Shown: positions 3,454-56,215 of the stretch, in pieces
Position numbering within the stretch: the stretch's first letter is position 1
Layout: the number at the start of each line of letters is the position of its first letter
Origin: a virus
Taxonomy: Duplodnaviria > Heunggongvirae > Uroviricota > Caudoviricetes
Length of the DNA stretch: 64,000 nt
Strand: one strand, 5' to 3'
Virus record (IMG/VR): IMGVR_UViG_2721755728_000011
Program-made: the position numbers and the translations under genes
Notes under the pieces: generated by a model
What the model was told of the DNA's origin: nothing
The model's input: the letters and a program-made list of their open reading frames with translations, nothing else
Database searches by the model: none

Positions 3454-4506
3454 TTATTTCCCCACCAGCTCGTTTATCTCTTTCACTGTCTGGTTAAACC
3501 GCTCTGACTCAAGCTCAACACCTAAGGCCCGACGCCCCAGCGCCATTGCTGCTTTTATTGTGGAACCGGATCCCATAAAAAAATCAGCAACCAGATCACC
3601 AGGTCGACTACTGGCATTGATTATTTGCCTGAGCATATCCGCCGGTTTCTCACACGGATGTTTACCCGGGTAGAACTGAACGGGTTTATGCATCCAGACA
3701 TCGGTATAAGGCACGGAGACTGATACGGAGAAATAGCGCCGGAGAGATTTAAACTCATCCAGCAATTCAGAATATTTGCGATTCAGTGAATCATAAGATG
3801 CCACCAGCTGGTGGTGTGGTTGTTCCAGTTGTTGTTCCTGAAACTTCTCTGCCGCTATACGGGAAAACAGTGCCTGTAACTTCCGATAGTCAGCCTCATT
3901 CGGCAACTGCCACTGACTGGCACCAAACCAGTGGGAAACCATATTTTTCTTACCTGTGGCTTCGGCAATTTGTTTTGCCGTTATACCCAGTTCGGCACGA
4001 GCATCCCTGAAATACGAAATCAGCGGTGCCATTATGTGCTGTTTGAGTTCCCTTTCTTTTGCCGCATAGCCGTCACTTTTGCCGCGATATGGCCCCTGGT
4101 AATGTTCAGCAAACAGAACGCGCTCTGTGGCTGGAAAATATGCACGCAGACTTTCTTTATTACACCCATTCCAACGTCCGGACGGCTTCGCCCAGATGAT
4201 ATGGTTAAGCACGTTGAAACGTTCACGCATCATGATCTCAATATCAGATGCCAGGCGATGCCCACAGAACAGGTAAAGGCTTCCGGCAGGTTTTAACACC
4301 CGCCAGAACTGGGCCAGACAGTGGTCCAGCCACTTAAGGTAATCTTCGTCCCCTTTCCACTGATTGTCCCAGCCGTTGGGTTTCACCTTGAAGTACGGCG
4401 GATCGGTAACAATCAGGTCAATGGAATCATCAGGCAGGGACTGAATAAAATGCAGGCAATCAGCGTTGATTAAATCAACACTGTTTATTTTTACAGTATT
4501 TTTCAT
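3454..4506 (-). CDS. Orphan DNA methyltransferase (N6-adenine/N4-cytosine, beta-class)
   Basis: 350 aa with catalytic DPPY motif (VTDPPYF) N-terminal and AdoMet-binding FxGxG (FFMGSGST) C-terminal; no adjacent restriction gene. Confidence 0.8.
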
Positions 4507-5789: not shown

Positions 5790-6584
5790 CTATCTTGTCA
5801 CTTTTCTCAATTGCGATTCAGCATACGCTTCTTCCTGCCAGCACTTTGTAACCAGTTTATTAATAACGTCTGCATATCCTTTGTACCACTGATAATCCGT
5901 CAGGTCCGGTACCAGTTTCTGGACATGATGCCGCGCCAGTGTGGTTGGTAAACGGCTAAACCGGTTGCCATTGCAACGCCCACAAATCTTATAAACAGGC
6001 ACACCATGAAGCCGGGTTCTTTTTTCATCCAGGACAATACCTTTACCCTTACACCCTCTGCACGCTGTGCTGACTTCTCCCTTACCATGGCAATGCTGAC
6101 ATAGTTCCTTCACCCACTCTTCCTTGATAACAGATTCCCCGCTTCTGGAGTGTTTCACCACTTCGCGCAATACATTATGAAATCCAGTACCAGCACAATG
6201 CTCACAGCGAGCCTTACTTGCCGCAGACCTGGAATAATCAGCAAAGGCAAAATTCACAAGGTAAGGGATGATCTGTAACCGGGTTTCTTCACTCAATTTG
6301 TTCAATGTCGGGTTATCCAGTGCCATCGCGTAATTGAGCAGACCTTCAATCGCAAATTGAGGATCCTGAACACCAACTTTTGCCAGGAATAAGGCAAACC
6401 CAAGCGGTGCTTTCGACTGCACCATCCCCTGCGCAGCCATCACATCCGTAATCGTTAAACCACCTGAGCCTGTCGCCGGTGCGTCATCGCTCAATTTTGG
6501 AGATTTTGGGGAGTAATATTTTGGTAAGGCTTCAAGGTTCATGCTCGTTCTCCACTTACGCCAGTACGCCAATTGCCAGCGCAC
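5790..6584 (-). CDS. quuQ: Late antiterminator Q, QuuQ type (lambda Q family, long form)
   Basis: Cys-rich motifs CEHCAGTG / CGRCNGN align with lambda Q zinc-finger region; probable true start at MNLEAL (6542). Confidence 0.8.
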   Translation of the reverse strand: MRWQLAYWRKWRTSMNLEALPKYYSPKSPKLSDDAPATGSGGLTITDVMAAQGMVQSKAPLGFALFLAKVGVQDPQFAIEGLLNYAMALDNPTLNKLSEETRLQIIPYLVNFAFADYSRSAASKARCEHCAGTGFHNVLREVVKHSRSGESVIKEEWVKELCQHCHGKGEVSTACRGCKGKGIVLDEKRTRLHGVPVYKICGRCNGNRFSRLPTTLARHHVQKLVPDLTDYQWYKGYADVINKLVTKCWQEEAYAESQLRKVTR

Positions 6585-6888
6585 GATCGATAAAACGAAA
6601 TATCAGCTCCAGCTGGGAGCCATACTTCTCTTCAAATGCCACGGTATCCGCATGCAGCTCGTCGTGATGCTTTCTGCACAAAGGCAACACAAAGAGGTCA
6701 TGCGCTTTTGTACCCATTCCACCCTGACCGTGGCCTATCAGGTGGTGGGGATCATCAGCAGGCTTTCCACAACATGCACACGGCTGTGTCTTAACCCAGC
6801 GCGTGTACTTTTCATTAACCCAGCGGCGACGTTTTGGGCGTAACATAAAAGACTCCGGCGACTCCGGATCCACTTTCAGCGCCAGCAC
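6556..6888 (-). pseudogene. 3' portion of ydfU/DUF968-like gene with HNH-like motif, 5'-truncated at inverted junction
   Basis: 110-aa ORF with CACCGK...HHLIGH...CRKHH motif; ends at Q start as ydfU does in Qin; mirror copy on plus strand at 6975..7355. Confidence 0.45.
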
Positions 6889-6974
6889 CTTTTTCGCTTT
6901 ATCCTGGATAATGCTGGTGGCAGGAACCGAAGGAACAAGGTCACTCTCCCGGGTGTACCCGGGAAAGTGACCTT

Positions 6975-7355
6975 GTGCCTTCGGTTCCTGCCACCAGCAT
7001 CATCCAGGATAAGGCGAAAAAGGTGCTGGCGCTGAAAGTGGATCCGGAGTCGCCGGAGTCTTTTATGTTACGCCCAAAACGTCGCCGCTGGGTTAATGAA
7101 AAGTACACGCGCTGGGTTAAGACACAGCCGTGTGCATGTTGTGGAAAGCCAGCTGATGATCCGCATCATCTGATAGGCCATGGTCAGGGTGGAATGGGTA
7201 CAAAAGCGCATGACCTTTTTGTGCTGCCTTTGTGCAGAAAACACCACGACGAACTGCATGCGGATACCGTGGCATTTGAAGAGAAGTATGGCTCCCAGCT
7301 GGAGCTGATATTTCGTTTTATCGATCGCGCACTGGCGATTGGTGTGCTGGCCTGA
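6975..7355 (+). pseudogene. 3' portion of ydfU/DUF968-like gene (mirror copy), 5'-truncated
   Basis: Protein identical over its shared length to the minus-strand copy at 6556..6888; no plausible native N-terminus. Confidence 0.45.
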
Positions 7356-20853: not shown

Positions 20854-21432
20854 ATGGCCATAAAAGGTCTTGAGCAGGCCGTTGAAAACCTCAGCCGTAT
20901 CAGCAAAACGGCGGTGCCTGGTGCCGCCGCAATGGCCATTAACCGCGTTGCTTCATCCGCGATATCGCAGTCGGCGTCACAGGTTGCCCGTGAGACAAAG
21001 GTACGCCGGAAACTGGTAAAGGAAAGGGCCAGGCTGAAAAGGGCCACGGTCAAAAATCCGCAGGCCAGAATCAAAGTTAACCGGGGGGATTTGCCCGTAA
21101 TCAAGCTGGGTAATGCGCGGGTTGTCCTTTCGCGCCGCAGGCGTCGTAAAAAGGGGCAGCGTTCATCCCTGAAAGGTGGCGGCAGCGTGCTTGTGGTGGG
21201 TAACCGTCGTATTCCCGGCGCGTTTATTCAGCAACTGAAAAATGGCCGGTGGCATGTCATGCAGCGTGTGGCCGGGAAAAACCGTTACCCCATTGATGTG
21301 GTGAAAATCCCGATGGCGGTGCCGCTGACCACGGCGTTTAAACAAAATATTGAGCGGATACGGCGTGAACGTCTTCCGAAAGAGCTGGGCTATGCGCTGC
21401 AGCATCAACTGAGGATGGTAATAAAGCGATGA
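20854..21432 (+). CDS. Z: Tail completion protein Z
   Basis: 192 aa MAIKGLEQAVENLSRISKTAVPG..., lambda Z. Confidence 0.9.
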   Translation: MAIKGLEQAVENLSRISKTAVPGAAAMAINRVASSAISQSASQVARETKVRRKLVKERARLKRATVKNPQARIKVNRGDLPVIKLGNARVVLSRRRRRKKGQRSSLKGGGSVLVVGNRRIPGAFIQQLKNGRWHVMQRVAGKNRYPIDVVKIPMAVPLTTAFKQNIERIRRERLPKELGYALQHQLRMVIKR

Positions 21433-21824
21433 AACATACTGAACTCCGTGCAGCCGTACTGGATGCACTGGAGAAGCATGACACCGGGGCGACGTTTTTT
21501 GATGGTCGCCCCGCTGTTTTTGATGAGGCGGATTTTCCGGCAGTTGCCGTTTATCTCACCGGCGCTGAATACACGGGCGAAGAGCTGGACAGCGATACCT
21601 GGCAGGCGGAGCTGCATATCGAAGTTTTCCTGCCTGCTCAGGTGCCGGATTCAGAGCTGGATGCGTGGATGGAGTCCCGGATTTATCCGGTGATGAGCGA
21701 TATCCCGGCACTGTCAGATTTGATCACCAGTATGGTGGCCAGTGGCTATGACTACCGGCGCGACGATGATGCGGGCCTGTGGAGTTCAGCCGATCTGACT
21801 TATGTCATTACCTATGAAATGTGA
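21429..21824 (+). CDS. U: Tail terminator protein U
   Basis: 131 aa, lambda U. Confidence 0.9.
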
Positions 21825-21831
21825 GGACGCT

Positions 21832-22572
21832 ATGCCTGTACCAAATCCTACAATGCCGGTGAAAGGTGCCGGGACCACCCTGTGGGTTTATAAGGGGAGC
21901 GGTGACCCTTATGCGAATCCGCTTTCAGACGTTGACTGGTCGCGTCTGGCAAAAGTTAAAGACCTGACGCCCGGCGAACTGACCGCTGAGTCCTATGACG
22001 ACAGCTATCTCGATGATGAAGATGCAGACTGGACTGCGACCGGGCAGGGGCAGAAATCTGCCGGAGATACCAGCTTCACGCTGGCGTGGATGCCCGGAGA
22101 GCAGGGGCAGCAGGCGCTGCTGGCGTGGTTTAATGAAGGCGATACCCGTGCCTATAAAATCCGCTTCCCGAACGGCACGGTCGATGTGTTCCGTGGCTGG
22201 GTCAGCAGTATCGGTAAGGCGGTGACGGCGAAGGAAGTGATCACCCGCACGGTGAAAGTCACCAATGTGGGACGTCCGTCGATGGCAGAAGATCGCAGCA
22301 CGGTAACAGCGGCAACCGGCATGACCGTGACGCCTTCCAGCACCTCGGTGGTGAAAGGGCAGAGCACCACGCTGACCGTGGCCTTCCAGCCGGAGGGCGT
22401 AACCGACAAGAGCTTTCGTGCGGTGTCTGCGGATAAAACAAAAGCCACCGTGTCGGTCAGTGGTATGACCATCACCGTGAACGGCGTTGCTGCAGGCAAG
22501 GTCAACATTCCGGTTGTATCCGGTAATGGTGAGTTTGCTGCGGTTGCAGAAATTACCGTCACCGCCAGTTAA
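21832..22572 (+). CDS. V: Major tail tube protein V
   Basis: 246 aa [22 protein letters not shown]..., lambda V with C-terminal Ig-like domain. Confidence 0.95.
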
Positions 22573-22587
22573 TCCGGAGAGTCAGCG

Positions 22588-23010
22588 ATGTTCCTGAAAA
22601 CCGAATCATTTGAACATAACGGTGTGACCGTCACGCTTTCTGAACTGTCAGCCCTGCAGCGCATTGAGCATCTCGCCCTGATGAAACGGCAGGCAGAACA
22701 GGCGGAGTCAGACAGCAACCGGAAGTTTACTGTGGAAGACGCCATCAGAACCGGCGCGTTTCTGGTGGCGATGTCCCTGTGGCATAACCATCCGCAGAAG
22801 ACGCAGATGCCGTCCATGAATGAAGCCGTTAAACAGATTGAGCAGGAAGTGCTTACCACCTGGCCCACGGAGGCAATTTCTCATGCTGAAAACGTGGTGT
22901 ACCGGCTGTCTGGTATGTATGAGTTTGTGGTGAATAATGCCCCTGAACAGACAGAGGACGCCGGGCCCGCAGAGCCTGTTTCTGCGGGAAAGTGTTCGAC
23001 GGTGAGCTGA
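22588..23010 (+). CDS. G: Tail assembly chaperone G
   Basis: 140 aa MFLKTESFEHNGVTVTLSELSALQRIEHLALMKR..., lambda G. Confidence 0.9.
   Translation: MFLKTESFEHNGVTVTLSELSALQRIEHLALMKRQAEQAESDSNRKFTVEDAIRTGAFLVAMSLWHNHPQKTQMPSMNEAVKQIEQEVLTTWPTEAISHAENVVYRLSGMYEFVVNNAPEQTEDAGPAEPVSAGKCSTVS
22986..22992 (+). promoter_or_regulatory. Programmed -1 ribosomal frameshift slippery heptamer GGGAAAG (G to GT)
   Basis: Heptamer at the G/T overlap, as in lambda. Confidence 0.8.
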
Positions 23011-23426
23011 GTTTTGCCCTGAAACTGGCGCGTGAGATGGGGCGACCCGACTGGCGTGCCATGCTTGCCGGGATGTCATCCACGGAGTATGCCGACTGGC
23101 ACCGCTTTTACAGTACCCATTATTTTCATGATGTTCTGCTGGATATGCACTTTTCCGGGCTGACGTACACCGTGCTCAGCCTGTTTTTCAGCGATCCGGA
23201 TATGCATCCGCTGGATTTCAGTCTGCTGAACCGGCGCGAGGCTGACGAAGAGCCTGAAGATGATGTGCTGATGCAGAAAGCGGCAGGGCTTGCCGGAGGT
23301 GTCCGCTTTGGCCCGGACGGGAATGAAGTTATCCCCGCTTCCCCGGATGTGGCGGACATGACGGAGGATGACGTAATGCTGATGACAGTATCAGAAGGGA
23401 TCGCAGGAGGAGTCCGGTATGGCTGA
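22992..23426 (+). CDS. T: T portion of tail assembly chaperone GT (frameshift product)
   Basis: 144-aa -1 frame ORF overlapping G end; lambda T-like. Confidence 0.85.
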   Translation: MFDGELSFALKLAREMGRPDWRAMLAGMSSTEYADWHRFYSTHYFHDVLLDMHFSGLTYTVLSLFFSDPDMHPLDFSLLNRREADEEPEDDVLMQKAAGLAGGVRFGPDGNEVIPASPDVADMTEDDVMLMTVSEGIAGGVRYG

Positions 23427-24765
23427 ACCGGTAGGCGATCTGGTCGTTGATTTGAGTCTGGATGCGGCCAGATTTGACGAGCAGATGGCCAGAGTCAGGC
23501 GTCATTTTTCCGGTACGGAAAGTGATGCGAAAAAAACAGCGGCAGTCGTTGAACAGTCGCTGAGCCGACAGGCGCTGGCTGCACAGAAAGCGGGGATTTC
23601 CGTCGGGCAGTATAAAGCCGCCATGCGTATGCTGCCTGCACAGTTCACCGACGTGGCCACGCAGCTTGCAGGCGGGCAAAGTCCGTGGCTGATCCTGCTG
23701 CAACAGGGGGGGCAGGTGAAGGACTCCTTCGGCGGGATGATCCCCATGTTCAGGGGGCTTGCCGGTGCGATCACCCTGCCGATGGTGGGGGCCACCTCGC
23801 TGGCGGTGGCGACCGGTGCGCTGGCGTATGCCTGGTATCAGGGCAACTCAACCCTGTCCGATTTCAACAAAACGCTGGTCCTTTCCGGCAATCAGGCGGG
23901 ACTGACGGCAGATCGTATGCTGGTCCTGTCCAGAGCCGGGCAGGCGGCAGGGCTGACGTTTAACCAGACCAGCGAGTCACTCAGCGCACTGGTTAAGGCG
24001 GGGGTAAGCGGTGAGGCTCAGATTGCGTCCATCAGCCAGAGTGTGGCGCGTTTCTCCTCTGCATCCGGCGTGGAGGTGGACAAGGTCGCTGAAGCCTTCG
24101 GGAAGCTGACCACAGACCCGACGTCGGGGCTGACGGCGATGGCACGCCAGTTCCATAACGTGACGACGGAGCAGATTGCGTATGTTGCTCAGTTGCAGCG
24201 TTCCGGCGATGAAGCCGGGGCATTGCAGGCGGCGAACGAGGCCGCAACGAAAGGGTTTGATGACCAGACCCGCCGCCTGAAAGAGAACATGGGCACGCTG
24301 GAGACCTGGGCAGACAGGACTGCGCGGGCATTCAAATCCATGTGGGATGCGGTGCTGGATATCGGTCGTCCTGATACCGCGCAGGAGATGCTGATTAAGG
24401 CAGAGGCTGCGTTTAAGAAAGCAGACGACATCTGGAATCTGCGCAAGGATGATTATTTTGTTAACGATGAAGCGCGGGCGCGTTACTGGGATGATCGTGA
24501 AAAGGCCCGTCTTGCGCTTGAAGCCGCCCGAAAGAAGGCTGAGCAGCAGACTCAACAGGACAAAAATGCGCAGCAGCAGAGCGATACCGAAGCGTCACGG
24601 CTGAAATATACCGAAGAGGCGCAGAAGGCTTACGAACGGCTGCAGACGCCGCTGGAGAAATATACCGCCCGTCAGGAAGAACTGAACAAGGCACTGAAAG
24701 ACGGGAAAATCCTGCAGGCGGATTACAACACGCTGATGGCGGCGGCGAAAAAGGATTATGAAGGG
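23419..24765 (+). pseudogene. H: Tape-measure protein H, 5' portion only (about codons 1..448)
   Basis: Matches remembered lambda H through ...LMAAAKKDYE, then runs into antisense of the other H copy; the 574-aa track ORF is read-through. Confidence 0.85.
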
Positions 24766-24775
24766 CCTTATTCAG
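24755..24775. other. Inverted (tail-to-tail) junction between two truncated H genes
   Basis: Plus-strand H homology ends at about 24762; minus-strand H homology ends at about 24764; no shared flanking sequence. Confidence 0.8.
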
Positions 24776-26056
24776 TTCTTCCTGACGGGCGGTATATTTC
24801 TCCAGCGGCGTCAGCAGACGCTCATACGCCTTCTGCGCCTCTCCGGTATACTTCAGCTGTGATGCGTCCCGTTCGGCCCGGTCCCTGGCGGCCAGTTCAC
24901 CGGCTTTTTCCATATCCGACTGCAGCGTGGCCGCTGCCAGCCCCAGACGGGCATTTTCCCGGTCATTCCATGCACCCTGAAGGTTCGCACGAAAAGAGGC
25001 GGTTTTTCCCCGGCGCTGGCTCCGGCTCTGGTACCACTGCCATTTTTTATCCGCCTCATCAAATGCCTTCTGTGCACTGGCGAGCATATCCGCTGAGGAC
25101 TCAGGACGACCGATATCCAGAATGGCATCCCACATCGATTTGAATGCCTTCCCGGTTTTATCCGCCCAGGTCTCCAGTGTCCCCATGTTTTCTTTCAGGC
25201 GACGGGTCTGCTCATCAAAGCCTTTCGTGGCGATATCGTTCGCCGCCTGTAAGGCCCCGGCCTCATCACCGGAACGCTGCAGCTGCGCAACATACGCAAT
25301 CTGCTCTGCCGTCACGTTACGGAACTGGCGCGCCATCGCCATCAGCCCCGACGTCGGGTCGGTGGTCAGTTTTCCGAAAGCCTCTGCAACCTTGTCCACC
25401 TCCACACCGGATGCAGAAGCAAAACGCGCGACACTCTGGTTGATGGCATCAAACTGTTCACCACCACGCACACCGGCATTCACCAGGGCTGCCAGTGACT
25501 CACTCGCCTGGTTAAACGTCAGCCCTGCGGCCTGTCCGGCTCTGGAGAGCGTCAGCATGCGATCGGCAGTCAGTCCGGACTGATTACCGGAAAGAACCAG
25601 GGTTTTATTAAACGCTGAAAGCGTGGAATCCCCCTGGTACCAGGCGTACGCCAGCGCACCTGTCGCCACCGCCAGCGAGGTGACCCCGACCATCGGCAGG
25701 GTGATCGCACCGGCAAGCCCCCTGAACATGGGGATCATCCCGCCGAAGGAGTCCTTCACCTGACCGCCCTGTTGCAGCAGGATCAGCCAGGGATTCTGAC
25801 CACCGGCAAGCTGCGTGGCGATATCCGTAAACTGTGCGGGCAGGGTTCGCATGGCCGCTTTATACTGCCCGACGGAAATCCCGGCTTTTTGTGCAGCCAG
25901 CGCCTGGCGGCTCAGGCCCTGTTCAACAGCACTGGCGGTTTTTCTGGCGTCGGTATCCAGACCTGAAAAATGACGCCTTACCCGGCTCATCTGCTCATCG
26001 AAACGGACCGCATCCAGACTAAGGTCAATAACAAGATCACCAACCGGCTGGGACAT
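24764..26056 (-). pseudogene. H: Tape-measure protein H (segment C copy), 5' portion only (about codons 1..431)
   Basis: Minus-strand ORF matches H through ...YTARQEELNKAL, then reads antisense of segment B H. Confidence 0.85.
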
Positions 26057-26450
26057 ATCTCACACCTCCGGAAATCCCCGCTGAAGCCATCATTAATGCG
26101 GCATCATCCACCATGACATCCGCCACATCCGCAGACGATAAAATATCGCGCCCTCCGTCCCCACCGAACCGGACGCCTCCGGCAAGTCCTGCCGCTTTCT
26201 GCATCAGCATTTTGTCCTCATCCGGCCTCTCCACCTGCTCTTCCTCATGCCGGGGGACAAGCAGACTGAAATCAGAGGGATGCATATCCGGATCGCAAAA
26301 AAACAGGCTGAGTACAGCGTACGTCAGCCCGGAAAAATGCATATCCAACTGGGTATCGTGAAAATAATGCATGCGGTAAAAATGTCGCCAGTCGGCATAT
26401 TCGGTGGATGTCATCCCGGCAAGCATGGCGCGCCAGTCAGGCCTCCCCAT
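26037..26450 (-). CDS. T: T portion of tail assembly chaperone GT
   Basis: Homologue of lambda T; overlaps G. Confidence 0.8.
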   Translation of the reverse strand: MGRPDWRAMLAGMTSTEYADWRHFYRMHYFHDTQLDMHFSGLTYAVLSLFFCDPDMHPSDFSLLVPRHEEEQVERPDEDKMLMQKAAGLAGGVRFGGDGGRDILSSADVADVMVDDAALMMASAGISGGVRYVPAGW

Positions 26451-26476
26451 CTCACGCGCCAGTCTGAGGGCAAAAT

Positions 26477-26908
26477 TCAGCTCGCCGTCGAAGACTTTCC
26501 CGCAGAAAAATCATCATCAGTCAGCGCGTTATTTTTCGCCACTTCGGTAATATCCGTATCCACATGAACAGGCCCGCTCATCCCGGACAGACGCAACACC
26601 ACATCTTCCGCCCGGGCAATGGCATCAGCAGGCCAGGTGGTCAGGACTTCCTGCTCAATCTGCATCACGGCCTCATTCATTGACGGTGACCCCGTTTTCT
26701 GCGGATGGTTATGCCACAGGGACATCGCCACCAGAAACGCGCCGGTTCTGACGAGATCTTCCACGCTTACCTGCAGGTTGCCGCTGGATTCTGCCTGTTC
26801 TGCACGCCGTTTCAGGAGGGCAAGATGCTCAATACGCTGCAGCGCAGACAATTCGGAAAGCGTGACAGACACACCGTTATATTCAAATTGTTCTGTTTTC
26901 AGAAACAT
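26477..26908 (-). CDS. G: Tail assembly chaperone G
   Basis: 143 aa, lambda G-like (MFLKTEQFEYNGVSVTLSELSALQRIEHLALLKR). Confidence 0.85.
   Translation of the reverse strand: MFLKTEQFEYNGVSVTLSELSALQRIEHLALLKRRAEQAESSGNLQVSVEDLVRTGAFLVAMSLWHNHPQKTGSPSMNEAVMQIEQEVLTTWPADAIARAEDVVLRLSGMSGPVHVDTDITEVAKNNALTDDDFSAGKSSTAS
26495..26501 (-). promoter_or_regulatory. Frameshift slippery heptamer GGGAAAG (minus strand)
   Basis: ctttccc on plus strand at the G/T overlap. Confidence 0.75.
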
Positions 26909-26921
26909 GTATGACCTCCGT

Positions 26922-27674
26922 TTACCCTGCAGCGCCTGCTTCAGTAACGGTGACTTCAGCTACCGTGGCAAACTGACCATTACCGGAAATCACGGGGATA
27001 CTCACTTTTCCAGCCTTAACCCCCGTCACAGTGATCACCATATCTTTCACAGCAATGGTTCCCGTTGACGGATCGGCGGAAACCGCTCTGAACGTCTTGT
27101 CGGTTGCACTTTCCGGCTCAAAAGAAACAGTCAGGGTGGTTGTTTTTCCTTTTTCCACGGTACCGGATGTCGGTGTCACCTTAATTGCAGTGGCCGGCGT
27201 AATTTCGCTGCGTTCTTCCGCCACGGAAGGTTTGCCCACGTTGGTCACTTTCACTGTTCGGGTGATCACTTCTTTCGCCGTCACTGCCTTACCGATACTG
27301 CTGATCCAGCCACGAAACACATCCACCGTGCCATTCGGAAAACGGATTTTATAGGCCCGCACATCCCCGCTTTCAAACCAGCCTATAAGCCCTTTCTGAC
27401 CTTCTTCTCCCGGTTTCCAGGCCAGTGTAAAACTGGTATCACCTGCAGATTTCTGTCCCTGCCCGGTCGCGCTCCAGTCCGCGTCTTCATCATCCAGGTA
27501 GTTATCATCGTAGGATTCTGCCGTCATCTCGCCCGGCGTCAGATCCTTCACCTTAGCCAGTCGCTGCCAGTCATCATCTGACAACGGGTTTGCATAAGCA
27601 TCACCCTTGCCGGTGTAAACCCACAGAGTGGTACCGGCACCTTTTACCGGCGCCAGGGGATTTGGTGTTGGCAT
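26922..27674 (-). CDS. V: Major tail tube protein V
   Basis: 250 aa, lambda V-like. Confidence 0.9.
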
Positions 27675-27681
27675 ATCGTCC

Positions 27682-28077
27682 TCACATCTCGTATGTAATG
27701 GAATAAGTCAAATCTGCAGAGCTCCATAACGCCATATCGTCATCACGACGATAGTCATAGCCCTGCTGAACCATCGTGGTAATCATCCCTGCCAGTGCAG
27801 GGATCGCGGACATCGCCGGATAAATCCGGGACTCCATCCACGAATCCAGCTCTGAATCCGGCACCTGAGCAGGCAGGAAAACTTCAATATGCAGTGTGGC
27901 CCGCCAGGTATCCGCATCCAGCTCTTCACCGGTATACTCTGCATCCGTCAGATAAACCGCGACCGCGGGAAAATCCTCTTCGTCAAAAACAACGGGGCGA
28001 CCATCAAACAGCGTCGCCCCGTGTTCATGCAGCTCCAGTGCATCCAGCACTGCAGCACGGATATCAGTATGTTTCAT
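27682..28077 (-). CDS. U: Tail terminator protein U
   Basis: 131 aa, lambda U-like. Confidence 0.85.
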
Positions 28078-28607
28078 CGTTTTATCGCAATCCTCAGTTG
28101 TTGTTTCAGCGCATATGCCAGTTCTCCGGGCAGGCGTTCACGCCGGATACGGTCAACGTTTTCATCAAACGCCTGTTTCAGTGGGGCCGCCATCGGGATT
28201 TTCACCACATCAATGGGGTAACGGTTTTTCCCGGCCACACGCTGCATGACATGCCAGCGACCATTTTTTAATCGCTGAATAAATGCCCGCTGATAACGAT
28301 GCTGACCGGCTTTGAGTATGCTGTCCGGACGACGCCCCGGCATCCTGATCCCCAGCTTAATCACCGGGAGATCACCGCGGTTAACGATAATTCTGGCATT
28401 CGGATTTCTGACCGTGGCCCGTTTCAGTCTGGACCGTTCCTTTACCAGTTTCCGGCTCACCCTGGTCTCCCGGGCAACCTGTGACGAAGACTGATTAATC
28501 GCCGTTGTGGCCACGCGGTTAATGGCCATTGCTGAAGCCGCCGGAATGGCGTTTTTACGAACCCGGCTCAGATTTTCAATCGCCTGATCAAGCCCTTTTA
28601 TCGCCAT
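28074..28607 (-). CDS. Z: Tail completion protein Z
   Basis: 177 aa, lambda Z-like. Confidence 0.85.
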   Translation of the reverse strand: MAIKGLDQAIENLSRVRKNAIPAASAMAINRVATTAINQSSSQVARETRVSRKLVKERSRLKRATVRNPNARIIVNRGDLPVIKLGIRMPGRRPDSILKAGQHRYQRAFIQRLKNGRWHVMQRVAGKNRYPIDVVKIPMAAPLKQAFDENVDRIRRERLPGELAYALKQQLRIAIKR

Positions 28608-53066: not shown

Positions 53067-53774
53067 ATGGTTCAGAATGAAAAAGTGCGCAAAGAATTCG
53101 CCCAGCGGCTAGCGCAAGCCTGTAAAGAAGCTGGTCTTGATGAACATGGTAGGGGAATGGCCATAGCCCGTGCCCTTTCTCTTTCGTCCAAAGGCGTTAG
53201 CAAATGGTTTAATGCTGAGTCTTTACCACGCCAGGAAAAAATGAATGCGCTTGCGAAATTTCTAAACGTTGATGTTGTTTGGCTTCAGCACGGCACTTCG
53301 TTAAATGGAGCGAATGATGAAGATACTTTTTCAATTGTTGGCAAATTAAAAAAAGGGTTAGTGCGCGTGGTTGGTGAGGCAATTCTTGGTGTTGATGGTG
53401 CCATCGAGATGACCGAAGAGCGCGATGGGTGGCTCAAGATTTATAGCGATGATCCAGATGCCTTTGGTCTTCGTGTAAAAGGAGACAGCATGTGGCCCAG
53501 AATTAAATCAGGAGAATATGTACTCATTGAGCCTAACACCAAAGTATTCCCAGGTGATGAAGTGTTTGTCAGAACCATTGAAGGGCACAACATGATCAAG
53601 GTTCTTGGCTATGACAGAGACGGAGAATACCAATTTACAAGCATCAATCAAGACCACAGGCCAATAACGTTGCCTTATCATCAAGTAGCAAAGGTGGAGT
53701 ATGTGGCTGGTATTTTGAAGCAATCTCGCCACCTAGATGACATCGAGGCAAGGGAATGGATTAAAAGTTCGTGA
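53067..53774 (+). CDS. cI: CI prophage repressor (HTH plus S24 LexA-like peptidase domain)
   Basis: 235 aa; N-terminal HTH, C-terminal GDSMWPRIKSGEYVLIEP and catalytic-Lys region. Confidence 0.85.
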   Translation: MVQNEKVRKEFAQRLAQACKEAGLDEHGRGMAIARALSLSSKGVSKWFNAESLPRQEKMNALAKFLNVDVVWLQHGTSLNGANDEDTFSIVGKLKKGLVRVVGEAILGVDGAIEMTEERDGWLKIYSDDPDAFGLRVKGDSMWPRIKSGEYVLIEPNTKVFPGDEVFVRTIEGHNMIKVLGYDRDGEYQFTSINQDHRPITLPYHQVAKVEYVAGILKQSRHLDDIEAREWIKSS

Positions 53775-53871
53775 CTTCATCGTCACATAGCTGGTAACCA
53801 ATGGCCTGAAGAGACGTTTGGGTGACAAGAAGCATAGGTATTAACAATAACTTTCATGGTGATACGAATCA

Positions 53872-54414
53872 GTGGCTAAAAAAGGCGACTTTAAGCCTAC
53901 CCAGAAAGAGGTTGACCAAGCTATTACTTGCTTGAAAAAAGTAACTTTTAGCGGAGTTTCGTGGACCGGAAGTGAGGGACGAACCCCAATCTGGTTTAAA
54001 TTGGATCTCAAAGCTTTTGATGAAATTGGCAACCCAATCACAGGCATAAGATTTATGCTTCACTGGCGTTCTCCTATCGTTGAAGGGGTGGATATAGTGA
54101 AGCTTTCATTTGTGATGTTTCTTCATGACAGGCGCATTTACGCGCTTGACCCGTACCCTGCGCATAACAAGTCACACCGTAATAAATCTATAGTGCACCA
54201 TCCAGATTTTGTTGAGGTGGCTCGAGGTCCTCACTATCACATGTACTTCGAATCAGCTGGGGAAGAAATTGCACTCAAGCTTGAAACGAACATCAAGCCA
54301 GATGATTTTTTTGGCTACTGGAATTATTTTTGCGAGGCGCTTAATATCATATATGAAGGCAGCCCACCTTTACCGAATCAAGATAAATCAGGTCAGCTAT
54401 CATGGGAAATGTAA
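53872..54414 (+). CDS. Unknown protein (180 aa), first gene of the cI-downstream operon
   Basis: Co-directional with cI, 97 bp downstream; GTG start; no TM segments or recognisable motifs; lower GC than flanks. Confidence 0.55.
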   Translation: MAKKGDFKPTQKEVDQAITCLKKVTFSGVSWTGSEGRTPIWFKLDLKAFDEIGNPITGIRFMLHWRSPIVEGVDIVKLSFVMFLHDRRIYALDPYPAHNKSHRNKSIVHHPDFVEVARGPHYHMYFESAGEEIALKLETNIKPDDFFGYWNYFCEALNIIYEGSPPLPNQDKSGQLSWEM

Positions 54415-55178
54415 CGTGTTCAACAGTCATATCTAAGCTCGGGTTTGAATGCCACCCAATGAGCGACACGTTGCTGCGCGTTATTAGTCCCTTCACATAC
54501 TACGATGATTGTGAGCAGATAAGCGTATTCGTTCAAGAGATGAGTGGTCAGTATAGGGTTACAGACTACTGCGATACATTGATGAATATTGAATCACGCG
54601 GCATCCACCTGACTAAAAAGAAAATTGATCTGATCAGGTCATCACTCGCTTCGCAAGGAATTTCATTAAATGACTCTGGAGAGATATCTGCGTGGGCAGA
54701 TGAGTCGTCCGTTGGACAGGTAACTGCAAATGTTATTCGTGGTGGGATTCTTGCATCCGCCCAAACTGCTGATTGGTACGCTGAGGTCAAAGACGATAAG
54801 TTTGAAAAATGTGTAATCAGTTACTTAAAATCAGCAGGGCTTGGGAAGCGACTAGCCTTAAAGGAAAAAGTGAAAGGTATTAGTGGGCATAACATTACTG
54901 TTCCGTTAACGCTAAGGAATGAGTCTCGACTAATACCACCAAAACGCGGGTTTACGGTAAGCCTTGCCAGCAGTAAAGGATGGAATACTGCCCACTCAAC
55001 AGTTGGGAAGATTGTTGACTTAAGTCAGGTCGTTCCTGACATAAACAATAGATTTGTAATAGTTGACAGCGATGGGTTAACACCTGAGCTACAGCAACTA
55101 TCACTACTATTTAATGATACCGCACGAGTGTTGCCATTCCATACCAGAGACTCTTGGATTGACTCTCTGGTAGCCTAG
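54402..55178 (+). CDS. Unknown protein (258 aa), second gene of the cI-downstream operon
   Basis: Overlaps upstream ORF by 13 nt; followed by a strong intrinsic terminator; no recognisable motifs. Confidence 0.6.
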   Translation: MGNVTCSTVISKLGFECHPMSDTLLRVISPFTYYDDCEQISVFVQEMSGQYRVTDYCDTLMNIESRGIHLTKKKIDLIRSSLASQGISLNDSGEISAWADESSVGQVTANVIRGGILASAQTADWYAEVKDDKFEKCVISYLKSAGLGKRLALKEKVKGISGHNITVPLTLRNESRLIPPKRGFTVSLASSKGWNTAHSTVGKIVDLSQVVPDINNRFVIVDSDGLTPELQQLSLLFNDTARVLPFHTRDSWIDSLVA

Positions 55179-55180
55179 AA

Positions 55181-55209
55181 AAACCCGGCCTCTGCGCCGG
55201 GTTTTCTTT
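55181..55209 (+). terminator. Intrinsic terminator ending the cI operon
   Basis: cccggc-ctctgc-gccggg followed by ttttcttt. Confidence 0.7.
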
Positions 55210-55468
55210 ACCTCACGTTCGCCTCCCCTATTTAACATCCGCATATGTGCTAACCCACGAACTAACACGCCAGCAATACAGTCCTTTCTCCCCTACAGAC
55301 CAATCTTCAATCTTTGCAAAAATAAATTCCCTTACATATCAAAATCTTATCTAATAAAATTAATGAGTTACAAAATTTCGTACTTATAGTTCTTGATAAT
55401 ATCGAACTATTAGTTCATTATTATCGCCATCTGCAGGATGCTGGCAGCCAAACGGAACAGATTGGCAG

Positions 55469-55502
55469 GCTCTTTAACTTCGATGGGGCGCTGACAAAGT
55501 GC
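55469..55502 (+). promoter_or_regulatory. nutL: nutL-like site (boxA gctctttaa plus boxB hairpin gcgc-tgacaaa-gtgc)
   Basis: Upstream of N; boxB resembles P22 type. Confidence 0.55.
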
Positions 55503-55621
55503 AAACAGATACCAAACGAGATGGATTTGGCGGTGATGTGAATTGCAGCTGCAACGACAGCAACCAGAAGATCAGCATCTGGCACATCACCCCCAAAGCC
55601 ATTTCACATGAGGAAAACATC

Positions 55622-55957
55622 ATGACGGTAATCGTGTACGGGAAATCAACATTTGCAGGAAATGCCAAAACTCGCCGTCATGAGCGGCGCAGAAAGCTGG
55701 CTATCGAGCGTGATGCTATATGCAACATCATCGATTCGATCTTCGGCACAGACAGTGAGGAACCTGTTCAGGAAGCCCCGAGAAAACGTTTAAGCCTTTC
55801 TGAAAAAGCAATATCACTCGGAAGCCTTCGCTGCCAGAAGGCAGAAGAAGTCGAGCGTAAACAGAACCGTATTTACTACCGCAAGCCACGCAGTGAAATG
55901 GGTGTGACTTGTGTTGGTCGCCAGAAAATGAAATTCGGCAACAAACCACTTATTTGA
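55622..55957 (+). CDS. N: Antiterminator N (P22-type ARM, lambda-like C-terminus)
   Basis: MTVIVYGKSTFAGNAKTRRHERRRKLAIER... at N-terminus; C-terminus RKQNRIYYRKPRSEMGVTCVGRQKMKFGNKPLI resembles lambda N. Confidence 0.8.
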   Translation: MTVIVYGKSTFAGNAKTRRHERRRKLAIERDAICNIIDSIFGTDSEEPVQEAPRKRLSLSEKAISLGSLRCQKAEEVERKQNRIYYRKPRSEMGVTCVGRQKMKFGNKPLI

Positions 55958-56035
55958 GGTGAGATATGGAAGAAGAATTTGAAGAGTTCGAAGAGCATCC
56001 TCAGGATGTGATGGAACAATACCAGGACTATCCGT

Positions 56036-56215
56036 ATGACTACGACTATTGATACAAATCAATGGTGTGGACAATTCAAACGATGCAATGGATGCAAGCT
56101 GCAATCGGAATGCATGGTTAAGCCTGAAGAAATGTTTCCTGTAATGGAGGATGGGAAATATGTCGATAAATGGGCAATACGAACGACGGCAATGATTGCC
56201 AGAGAACTTGGTTAA
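56036..56215 (+). CDS. ral: Ral restriction-alleviation protein
   Basis: 59 aa MTTTIDTNQWCGQFKRCNGCKLQSECMVKPEEMFPVMEDGKYVDKWAIRTTAMIARELG, lambda Ral-like. Confidence 0.85.
   Translation: MTTTIDTNQWCGQFKRCNGCKLQSECMVKPEEMFPVMEDGKYVDKWAIRTTAMIARELG

What the first reader, a model, noticed from the sequence alone, without database searches (positions are those of the whole stretch)
53872..55209. Uncharacterised two-gene operon immediately downstream of cI, at the rexAB / exclusion-gene position
Two overlapping ORFs (180 aa and 258 aa, 13-nt overlap) lie 97 bp downstream of cI on the same strand and end at a strong intrinsic terminator just before the PL/nutL/N region. In lambda this slot holds rexA-rexB, expressed with cI in the lysogen, and in lambdoid prophages it is a recurrent site for exclusion and abortive-infection genes. 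Neither protein resembles RexA/RexB (no TM segments) and neither shows a P-loop, kinase or nuclease motif I can recognise. GC content is lower than the flanking immunity genes. This is my best candidate for an undescribed prophage-encoded defence or exclusion system.
Basis: partly seen in the sequence, partly recalled or inferred. Interest (0 to 1): 0.8.

Follow-up and report, generated by a model that had tools for sequence, protein, structure and literature searches.

The report
Untested prophage defence candidate beside cI
Two tightly coupled genes of unknown function sit just after the repressor gene of an E. coli lambda-like prophage, in the slot that other phages use for proven anti-phage genes (rexAB, BstA). 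They are most likely a lysogen-expressed defence module built around a nuclease-like protein, but nobody has tested this and others have already flagged it by computer.

Summary
ORF A (53872-54414, 180 aa) and ORF B (54402-55178, 258 aa) overlap by 13 nt, start 97 bp after an S24-type cI, and end at a strong hairpin with a T-run just before PL/nutL/N. The GC remark is only marginally true.

**What the proteins are**
- B has a DUF1828 domain (fold like YbjN proteins and type III secretion chaperones) followed by a DUF1829-like domain with a restriction-endonuclease fold. It lacks the canonical PD-(D/E)xK residues.
- A is a small, fast-evolving beta-rich protein with an invariant H..GPHxH cluster and no known fold.

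**Context**
- A abuts B in 110 of 111 loci surveyed, and the two co-diverge (r = 0.98).
- An S24 repressor gene lies upstream in about 100 loci, with at least 26 different repressor alleles.
- The cassette (53802-55216) is swapped in and out. The same cI allele occurs in 650 E. coli genomes but carries A-B in only 25, and elsewhere it is followed by BstA, a proven abortive-infection gene.

**What is already known**
- Distant cousins are the untested PADLOC candidate PDC-M24.
- The E. coli cluster is listed by DefensePredictor (Science 2026) as "predicted novel defense", and it does not appear in that paper's tables of tested systems.

**Verdict:** a real, good but untested defence candidate. 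It is not undescribed.

The parts
53067..53774 (+). cI-type repressor (HTH_3 + Peptidase_S24), first gene of the presumed lysogenic transcript
   Evidence: ORF. Pfam Peptidase_S24 E 3.5e-16 and HTH_3 E 1.2e-5. RefSeq annotates it as 'S24 family peptidase'.
53775..53871 (+). cI-A spacer (97 nt). No + strand terminator and no significant structure. The left recombination junction of the cassette lies at about 53802-53826. A's Shine-Dalgarno-like GGTGA is at 53858-53862.
   Evidence: Terminator scan. Fold z = +1.1. Matches to other genomes break at query positions 734-760 or begin at 736. Sequence read.
53802..55216 (+). Mobile cassette ('moron'): 5' leader + A + B + terminator. It is exchanged as one block between prophages with different repressors.
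   Evidence: 61 E. coli genomes carry the block. Only 25 of the 650 genomes with this cI allele carry both. Strain S1-KEN-03-A matches window 53802-55216 behind a different LexA-family repressor.
53872..54414 (+). Gene A, 180 aa. A small cytosolic beta-rich protein, weakly DUF6978-like, with conserved R88, H102, G119-P-H121-x-H123, F153 and N158, and an invariant but disordered C-terminal tail (PPLPNQDxSGQLSWEM).
   Evidence: - **Family hits:** Pfam DUF6978 E 2.7e-4, below the cut-off. PHROG 2017 E 9e-73. PDC-M24A E 1.5e-3.
- **Conservation:** alignments A2, A4 and A5.
54402..54767 (+). Gene B, N-terminal domain (aa 1-122). DUF1828, with a fold like YbjN proteins and type III secretion chaperones. 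Conserved C6, C17, D36, D55, D58 and G93-E94-I95.
54795..55175 (+). Gene B, C-terminal domain (aa 132-258). DUF1829-like, with a restriction-endonuclease (PD-(D/E)xK clan) fold. Non-canonical conserved residues G159-x-S161-G-H163, K203, D206 and D222.
55184..55209 (+). Intrinsic terminator that ends the cI-A-B transcript (analogue of the lambda terminator after rexB). It also marks the right end of the cassette.
   Evidence: Fold dG -21.4 kcal/mol, z = -3.6, with 1 of 200 shuffles as stable. Homology to other genomes ends at window 55216.
55393..55957 (+). Downstream boundary of the slot: PL-like promoter (55393-55421), boxB-like nutL hairpin (55488-55502) and an N-like antiterminator ORF (55622-55957).
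   Evidence: Promoter scan. Sequence. ORF with the motif AKTRRHERRRKLAIER. That this resembles the P22 N arginine-rich motif and boxB is from my own knowledge.

Best explanation
A-B is a lysogen-expressed, two-gene anti-phage defence (abortive-infection or exclusion) cassette that rides in the cI operon of temperate phages.

**Shown**
- It is a discrete block (leader + A + B + terminator).
- It has no terminator between it and cI.
- It is inherited strictly as a pair.
- It is exchanged among prophages independently of the repressor allele.
- It occupies the same slot as rexAB and BstA.

**Inferred mechanism**
- B is the effector. Its C-terminal restriction-endonuclease-like domain cuts nucleic acid using a non-canonical site (H163, K203, D206, D222).
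- B's N-terminal domain, which resembles a secretion chaperone, acts as a protein- or peptide-binding gate.
- A is made by translational coupling just before B and evolves faster. It is the regulatory or sensing partner. It may be an antitoxin-like subunit held through its invariant disordered C-terminal tail, or a metal-binding co-effector using its His cluster.
- Infection by a heterologous phage would disturb the A-B complex and unleash B.

My confidence that it is a defence module is about 0.6. My confidence in the particular division of labour is about 0.3.
For: **Operon anatomy**
- 97-nt unstructured spacer, 13-nt overlap and a strong terminator.

**Pairing**
- An A-like ORF abuts B in 30 of 31 loci and in 80 of 80 viral contigs.
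- The two co-diverge, r = 0.977, and A is the less conserved in 81% of comparisons.

**Position**
- An S24 repressor lies upstream on the same strand in 21 of 22 and 79 of 80 loci, with at least 26 repressor alleles.
- This holds in Gamma-, Beta- and Epsilonproteobacteria.

**Accessory nature**
- The cI allele is in 650 E. coli genomes, but A-B accompanies it in only 25. A-B occurs in 61 genomes.

**Allelic alternatives**
- BstA (PADLOC E 4e-106) follows the same cI allele in strain RM6927.
- BstA and rexAB are proven abortive-infection genes at this hotspot (Owen 2021, PMC8585504).

**Autonomy**
- Stand-alone pairs occur next to SIR2_2, HsdR, PIN and resolvase genes.

**Folds**
-.

**Independent predictions**
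- Remote matches to PDC-M24A/B. PDC-M24 was found embedded in BREX, DISARM or type I RM loci.
- DefensePredictor lists both genes of the E. coli cluster as 'Predicted novel defense gene'.

**Retention**
- Both genes are intact and under purifying selection in a rearranged, IS-riddled prophage.
Against: - No phenotype is on record for any member. The accessions are absent from DefensePredictor's tables of tested and validated units, and PDC systems are explicitly untested.
- The canonical PD-(D/E)xK triad is not conserved, so B may not be a nuclease at all.
- A has no recognisable fold or motif family, and its model is only moderate (pLDDT 68).
- No homologue occurs on plasmids, unlike many defence systems.
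- Position-based guilt by association also fits any gene that benefits from lysogenic expression.
- Co-transcription with cI is inferred from the sequence, not measured.
Confidence: 0.55

Rival explanations
1. A-B is primarily a toxin-antitoxin or addiction module that stabilises the prophage (or any element carrying it). Any anti-phage effect would be secondary. One protein (probably B's nuclease-like domain) is toxic, and the other (A, upstream and translationally coupled) neutralises it.
For: - Compact two-gene architecture with overlapping genes, the small gene first.
- Strict co-inheritance and co-divergence.
- Stand-alone copies in chromosomes outside prophages.
- Retention in a decayed prophage.
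- The only validated system with a (weak) DUF1829 match, HipAD, is proposed to work as a TA system.
Against: - No similarity to any known toxin or antitoxin family in Pfam, NCBIfam or PADLOC.
- No DNA-binding antitoxin-type domain was detected.
- Absent from plasmids, where addiction modules are common.
- TA and defence are not mutually exclusive, so this is more a sub-hypothesis than a true rival.
Confidence: 0.2
2. A-B serves the phage's own lysis-lysogeny biology. It would modulate the S24 repressor switch, induction or the transition to lytic growth (as has been reported for lambda RexA/RexB) rather than act against other phages.
For: - Near-absolute linkage to an S24-type repressor on the same strand: 21 of 22 loci and 79 of 80 loci.
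- This holds across repressors only 13-29% identical.
- The chaperone-like domain could bind a regulator.
Against: - The module combines freely with at least 26 repressor alleles.
- It is missing from about 96% of genomes carrying the very same cI allele.
- It is replaceable by BstA or an unrelated 299-aa gene.
- It exists without any repressor nearby.
- A specific partner of CI would be expected to co-vary with it.
Confidence: 0.12
3. A-B is lysogenic-conversion cargo with a host-directed function unrelated to phages (metabolic, stress or virulence-related), or a selfish passenger with no function beyond its own spread.
For: - Function unknown, with no catalytic motif confirmed.
- bstA itself was first linked to virulence phenotypes before its defence role was found.
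- Some distant copies sit among housekeeping genes.
Against: - Both proteins are cytosolic, with no TM segment (signal peptides were not specifically tested).
- The nuclease-type fold, the neighbourhoods with defence genes and two independent defence predictions all point elsewhere.
- Strong purifying selection argues against a functionless passenger.
Confidence: 0.1

Closest known systems
PADLOC candidate PDC-M24 (CAS_00098, FAM_00129>>FAM_00065; Payne et al. 2024, bioRxiv 10.1101/2024.01.29.577857)
   Same: - Two genes in the same order and on the same strand: a small protein (146-148-position models) followed by a protein of about 255 aa.
- Both window proteins hit the corresponding models and no others. 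A hits M24A and B hits M24B.
- All B relatives hit M24B at 1e-5 to 1e-14, some over their full length.
- Same DUF6978-like + DUF1828/DUF1829 superfamily.
   Different: - Homology is remote (A E 1.5e-3 over 50 residues; B E 6e-7 over the N-terminal 100 residues), so PADLOC would probably not call this locus.
- A is longer (180 aa).
- PDC-M24 was defined from copies embedded in BREX, DISARM or type I RM loci, whereas this branch lives behind prophage repressors.
- PDC-M24 is itself one of 145 untested candidates.
E. coli 'ev207-type' pair (WP_001062368.1 + WP_000968518.1; phages ev207, ev017, PhiR63_2, PhiR57_1, Stx1_121427), listed by DefensePredictor (Science 2026, PMC13092281)
   Same: - Same slot (cI then A then B then N), same architecture, 51% (B) and 41% (A) identity.
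- The paper's cluster representative for the A protein, WP_001074607.1, is the window-type A of strain S1-KEN-03-A.
- Both genes are scored as 'Predicted novel defense gene', with log-odds 4.9-6.3.
   Different: - It is a distinct subtype, with a 4-nt rather than 13-nt overlap and B three residues shorter at the N-terminus.
- It is a prediction only. The accessions are absent from the tables of tested and validated units.
Lambda RexAB
   Same: Identical genomic logic. Two genes lie directly downstream of cI on the same strand, end at a terminator before PL/N, and are presumed to be expressed in the lysogen. RexAB is the classic abortive-infection system of this slot (and established lambda biology).
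   Different: No sequence or fold relationship. RexB is a polytopic membrane protein, whereas A and B have no TM segment. There were no Rex hits in PADLOC.
BstA (Owen et al. 2021, PMC8585504)
   Same: - A prophage-encoded abortive-infection gene downstream of cI with its own terminator.
- Here it is shown to be a direct allelic alternative. The same cI allele (96.4% nt identity) is followed by BstA in E. coli RM6927.
- It shares the same tight association with repressor loci across Gram-negative bacteria.
   Different: A single 300-aa protein with an unrelated sequence. Its aba self-immunity element is not known here.
Effector nucleases with a restriction-endonuclease fold (Can2/Card1, NucC) and the NgoMIV/Cfr10I/PspGI group of type II enzymes
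   Different: - B has no CARF domain or other ligand domain of the Can2/NucC kind.
- B lacks the conserved D...(D/E)xK residues and has H163, K203, D206 and D222 instead.
- A relocated acidic residue on the helix after beta-3, as in Cfr10I/NgoMIV, is a possibility from my own knowledge. It was not tested.
HipAD / DS-6 (DS-6B = DUF3037 + DUF1829)
   Same: The only experimentally validated defence system in which a DUF1829-like region has been reported.
   Different: The DUF1829 match there is weak (HHpred probability 0.78). The partner is a HipA kinase, and there is no DUF1828 or DUF6978-like protein. It is a different system.

Membership tests
Pfam DUF1828 (PF08861) | Score above Pfam's gathering cut-off for the domain | tested here: met
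   B aa 30-112, 40.9 bits against a cut-off of 22, E 2.6e-10. All homologues carry PF08861.
Pfam DUF1829 (PF08862, clan PDDEXK) | Score above the gathering cut-off in the C-terminal half | tested here: inconclusive
   - The window's B gives no DUF1829 hit at E <= 1.
- Distant homologues do (23.4 and 29.1 bits against a cut-off of 22.2).
- Published HHpred gives 98.8% probability for the 51%-identical E. coli homologue.
- The fold is restriction-endonuclease-like.
PD-(D/E)xK nucleases | Conserved catalytic D on beta-2 and (D/E)xK on beta-3 | tested here: not met
   Across the family alignment the invariant residues are G159, S161, H163 and D206, with G162, K203 and D222 nearly invariant. K181 on beta-3 is not conserved, and there is no acidic residue at the start of beta-2. 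Activity through a non-canonical site cannot be excluded.
Pfam DUF6978 (PF22398) | Score above the gathering cut-off (29.6 bits) | tested here: not met
   A scores 21.7 bits, E 2.7e-4, over the C-terminal 60 residues only. 5 of 23 family members match, best E 1.1e-4. It is a remote relative at most.
PADLOC PDC-M24 | Confident, near full-length hits of both proteins to the PDC-M24A and PDC-M24B models | tested here: not met
   A: E 1.5e-3, residues 111-160. B: E 6.3e-7, residues 5-104 of 258. I did not run PADLOC's own thresholds.
PADLOC PDC-M24 | Gene order small>>large, same strand, adjacent | tested here: met
   A then B with a 13-nt overlap. The cassette is defined as FAM_00129>>FAM_00065.
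PADLOC PDC-M24 | Found embedded within BREX, DISARM or type I RM loci (the basis on which the candidate was defined) | tested here: not met
   Here and in about 100 related loci the pair lies behind a prophage S24 repressor. One distant copy lies 4 kb from an HsdR-like gene.
RexAB | Homology to RexA/RexB; RexB is a multi-pass membrane protein | tested here: not met
   No Rex model hit in PADLOC. Maximum 19-residue hydropathy is 1.22 (A) and 0.79 (B).
RexAB | Position directly downstream of cI, same strand, terminator before PL/N | tested here: met
BstA | Match to the BstA model | tested here: not met
   No BstA hit for A or B. The model does detect true BstA at E 4e-106 in the allelic locus.
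Validated anti-phage defence system (any) | Reduced plaquing or culture protection when expressed | not testable with these tools
   No experimental record was found in ten literature searches. Brenes & Laub 2025 could not be read.
Type II toxin-antitoxin | One product toxic alone and neutralised by the other through a direct complex | not testable with these tools
   Only the architecture (overlapping pair, co-divergence r = 0.977) is compatible.

The most novel reading that the evidence does not exclude
A-B is a mechanistically new, widespread defence family of temperate phages. In this reading a domain with a secretion-chaperone fold senses a phage protein (or holds the fast-evolving partner A by its invariant disordered tail). 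That domain gates a restriction-endonuclease-fold effector with a re-wired, histidine-containing active site. The system is hard-wired into S24-repressor operons, so that it is on only in lysogens. No validated defence system has this architecture.
Probability: 0.35. Interest if true: 0.7.

Novelty: new variant of a known kind. Interest (0 to 1): 0.55.

Why it matters
If it defends, this would add a new protein architecture to the set of prophage defence genes at the cI-N hotspot, alongside RexAB and BstA. That architecture is a chaperone-like domain, a nuclease-like domain with non-canonical residues, and a small His-cluster partner.

It would also turn two computational predictions (PDC-M24 and DefensePredictor) into a validated system.

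Its distribution makes it a clean natural experiment on how temperate phages trade defence cargo:
- It occurs in 61 of 5,426 complete E. coli genomes and 151 IMG/VR contigs.
- It is found in Pseudomonas, Burkholderia, Cupriavidus, Yersinia, Providencia and Helicobacter prophages.
- It is exchanged in strict allelic fashion behind many repressor alleles.

The test is cheap. It needs a 1.4-kb clone and a phage panel.

Tried and rejected
**Sequence and RNA searches that found nothing**
- Profile searches of both families against all PDB chains gave no hit at E <= 10.
- NCBIfam gave no hit.
- A megablast of the cassette against INPHARED phages gave no match. Only protein-level relatives exist there.
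- PLSDB plasmids hold no homologue.
- Rfam on 52600-56100 gave only a sub-threshold chance hit.

**Searches on protein A**
- The BFVD search of A gave one uncharacterised viral protein.
- The AFDB50 library was unavailable.
- A deep HMMER search with the A profile found only 22 representative clusters in 1.84 billion proteins, so no annotated or fused relative could lend a function.

**Ideas considered and dropped**
- A as an HNH / His-Me finger nuclease. The H-x-N...H-x-H spacing and the beta-beta-alpha order are suggestive, but I have no structural or profile support, so it stays a speculation.
- An internal promoter in B (54802-54831, 10 of 12 consensus positions). The number of promoter-like sites in the region equals the chance expectation.

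**Literature**
- DUF1828, DUF6978 and PDC-M24 return only incidental mentions.
- I could not trace phages PhiR63_2 and PhiR57_1 to a paper.
- Brenes & Laub 2025 is not in the held library.
Full report
**1. Observation**

The two ORFs exist exactly as described.
- A is at 53872..54414 (GTG start, 180 aa) and B at 54402..55178 (258 aa). Both are on the + strand and overlap by 13 nt.
- A starts 97 nt after the stop of a 235-aa repressor gene at 53067..53774.
- That repressor carries HTH_3 and Peptidase_S24 domains.
- The window is 100% identical to E. coli strain C7 (NZ_CP010240.1, 4962774-5026773). RefSeq annotates the same two genes there, as 'hypothetical protein' and 'DUF1828 domain-containing protein'.

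Six bases after B's stop codon lies a terminator.
- A 6-bp all-GC stem (55184-55201) is followed by UUUUCUUU.
- It folds at -21.4 kcal/mol, z = -3.6.
- The pattern scanner missed it, probably because the upstream A-run can pair with the T-run.

The 97-nt spacer between cI and A has no + strand terminator and no significant structure (z = +1.1). Read-through from the cI promoters is therefore plausible but unmeasured.

Downstream come a PL-like promoter (55393-55421), a boxB-like hairpin (55488-55502) and an N-like ORF with an arginine-rich motif (55622-55957).

Neither protein has a TM segment or a Walker A motif.

The GC claim is marginal. A is 0.429 and B 0.436, against cI 0.448, cro 0.421, cII 0.465 and N 0.476.

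**2. The proteins**

Protein B:
- It scores above threshold for Pfam DUF1828 (aa 30-112) and belongs to PHROG 1960.
- An AlphaFold2 model built on 21 homologues is good (pLDDT 82) and has two domains.
  - The second is restriction-endonuclease-fold nucleases (Can2 10.4, NgoMIV 9.4, PspGI 9.3, BsoBI, MunI, Cfr10I, NucC).
- It agrees with three other results. Distant homologues hit Pfam DUF1829 in their C-terminal half. Published HHpred results for the 51%-identical E. coli homologue give DUF1829 at 98.8% probability. Pfam places DUF1829 in clan CL0236 (PDDEXK).
- The canonical D...(D/E)xK residues are not conserved, however. The family-wide invariant residues are G159, S161, H163 and D206, with G162, K203 and D222 nearly invariant, plus C6, C17, D36, D55, D58 and G93-E94-I95 in the N-domain.

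Protein A:
- It belongs to PHROG 2017.
- It only weakly resembles Pfam DUF6978 (21.7 bits against a cut-off of 29.6; 5 of 23 relatives match).
- Its model is moderate (pLDDT 68) and mostly beta.
- Conserved positions are R88, H102, G119-P-H121-x-H123, F153 and N158.
- The last 15 residues (PPLPNQDxSGQLSWEM) are invariant among close relatives yet predicted disordered. Only the last 13 nt overlap B.
- A full HMMER scan of 1.84 billion representative proteins found only 22 related clusters.

**3. The pair is one unit**

- Using HMMs built from my alignments, an A-like ORF abuts B in 30 of 31 loci from phage, genome and metagenome sources. The single exception has a truncated B.
- The same holds in 80 of 80 IMG/VR contigs.
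- In several loci the A-like ORF had not been annotated or called, including Pseudomonas phage phPA-G.
- Across 56 non-identical pairs the pairwise identities of A and B correlate at r = 0.977, and A is the less conserved partner in 81% of comparisons.
- Both genes are under purifying selection.

**4. Genomic niche**

- The gene upstream on the same strand is an S24 repressor in 21 of 22 diverse loci, although those repressors are only 13-29% identical to the window's cI.
- It is also an S24-like repressor in 79 of 80 viral contigs, where 26 different repressor alleles (at 90% identity) are represented.
- Carriers include coliphages ev207 and ev017, ECOR13 phages, an Stx1a phage, Pseudomonas phage phPA-G, Burkholderia phi644-2 and a Helicobacter prophage.
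- They also include prophages of Eoetvoesiella, Cupriavidus, Pantoea, Providencia, Yersinia, Xenorhabdus, Azotobacter and Pseudomonas.
- A minority of very distant copies are stand-alone. One lies between a DnaB-like gene and PIN_12, resolvase and HsdR-like genes. One is near a SIR2_2 gene. One is among housekeeping genes.
- None is on a PLSDB plasmid.

**5. It is exchangeable cargo in a proven defence slot**

- The cassette is present in 61 of 5,426 complete E. coli genomes.
- The cI allele of the window is present in 650 genomes, but only 25 carry cI and A-B together. In the others the match stops 26-52 nt after the cI stop.
- Conversely, 36 genomes carry A-B behind another repressor. In strain S1-KEN-03-A the match spans window 53802-55216. 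This defines a block of leader + A + B + terminator.
- Behind the same cI allele, strain RM6927 carries BstA instead (PADLOC E 4e-106) and strain RIVM_C039227 carries an unrelated 299-aa gene.
- BstA is an experimentally proven prophage abortive-infection protein. Its discoverers stressed its conserved position downstream of cI, the mosaic nature of the cI-N interval, and that rexAB occupies the same site in lambda (PMC8585504).
- In Providencia and Izhakiella a DUF3024 gene (PADLOC candidate PDC-S43, E 6e-37) sits between the repressor and A-B.

**6. What is already known**

- PADLOC's models for the candidate PDC-M24 are the only ones hit, in the right pairing: A to M24A (E 1.5e-3) and B to M24B (E 6e-7).
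- Relatives of B hit M24B at 1e-5 to 1e-14.
- PDC-M24 is cassette CAS_00098 (153 occurrences). It is one of 145 candidates derived by 'guilt by embedding' in BREX, DISARM and type I RM loci, and it is explicitly untested.
- DefensePredictor (Science 2026, PMC13092281) lists the ev207-type E. coli pair as 'Predicted novel defense gene'. WP_000968518.1/WP_000968517.1 score log-odds 5.6-6.3, and WP_001062368.1 scores 4.9-5.4.
- Its cluster representative for the small protein, WP_001074607.1, is the window-type A found in strain S1-KEN-03-A.
- These accessions do not occur in the paper's tables of tested and validated units, which are held uncut.
- The paper's statement that DUF1829 is newly implicated in defence refers to HipAD (DS-6B), a different system with a weak DUF1829 match.
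- I found no experimental test of any family member. One relevant paper (Brenes & Laub 2025) could not be read.

**7. Interpretation**

The best-supported reading is a lysogen-expressed defence or exclusion cassette.

What is shown:
- its anatomy;
- its strict pairing;
- its accessory and mobile nature;
- its allelism with BstA;
- the fold assignments.

What is inferred:
- co-transcription with cI;
- nuclease activity of B through a non-canonical site;
- the chaperone-like domain as a sensor or gate;
- A as regulator, sensor or antitoxin, perhaps docking by its conserved tail.

The rivals are a TA or addiction role (compatible and partly overlapping), a role in the phage's own switch, and unrelated conversion cargo. 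The switch role is disfavoured by free recombination with at least 26 repressor alleles and by repressor-less copies.

**8. Verdict**

It is not undescribed, though. It is a divergent, prophage-borne branch of a catalogued but untested candidate family, and this E. coli cluster is already on a published prediction list. Interest is moderate. The architecture is unlike any validated system and the experiment is easy, but a specialist would not be surprised by another defence gene at this hotspot.

Noticed in passing
L034:4378-5280 (E. coli RM6927) and L033:4338-5237 (E. coli RIVM_C039227): Behind the same cI allele as in the window (96-98.5% nt identity), other strains carry BstA (PADLOC E 4e-106) or an unrelated 299-aa hypothetical protein (WP_000076839.1, no PADLOC or Pfam hit). 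The latter is another untested occupant of the defence slot.
   Followed up: partly
L017:5052-5393, L018:5053-5394, L021:5044-5385: In Providencia and Izhakiella prophages a 113-aa DUF3024 protein (PADLOC candidate PDC-S43, E 6e-37) is inserted between the S24 repressor and the A-B pair. Two candidate systems are therefore stacked in one repressor operon.
   Followed up: partly
L003:3420-4004 (Pseudomonas phage VB_PaD_phPA-G, PP083311.1): The A-like partner gene is not annotated in the deposited record, although an ORF with the conserved PHxH motif overlaps the DUF1828 gene start by 4 nt. Gene callers also missed the A-like ORF in metagenome loci L010, L012 and L013. A 216-aa gene between the repressor and A weakly matches PDC-S48.
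   Followed up: partly
window 21216-28289 (junction about 24762): Two truncated tape-measure genes meet tail to tail, flanked by inverted tail-gene blocks about 78% identical. Two lambdoid prophages appear to have recombined by inversion, leaving the prophage that carries A-B without a complete tail module.
   Followed up: partly
window 46949-48162 and 49184-50397: Two IS3-family copies (94% identical to each other) interrupt and flank ninB fragments in the nin region of the same prophage. This is further evidence that the element is decaying, while cI, A and B stay intact.
   Followed up: no
window 44132-45904 (+): A 590-aa hypothetical protein (WP_000612803.1) is encoded on the opposite strand to the surrounding nin/HNH genes. 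It looks like a moron and has no PADLOC hit.
   Followed up: partly
window 6556-7355: Two partial DUF968 genes in opposite orientation (95% identical inverted repeat, 6560-7351) mark another inversion junction between prophage late regions. Three sets of lysis genes (essD/rrrD) lie in the window.
   Followed up: no
window 3454-4506 (-): A prophage-borne DNA methyltransferase matches a PADLOC type II MTase model (E 1e-151). No adjacent restriction gene is annotated, so it is probably an orphan phage methylase.
   Followed up: no
L013:7010-7525 and L015:4906-5424: In two related non-prophage loci the A-B pair sits next to a uracil-DNA glycosylase family gene, on different sides. This is probably shared chromosomal context rather than a functional link.
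   Followed up: no
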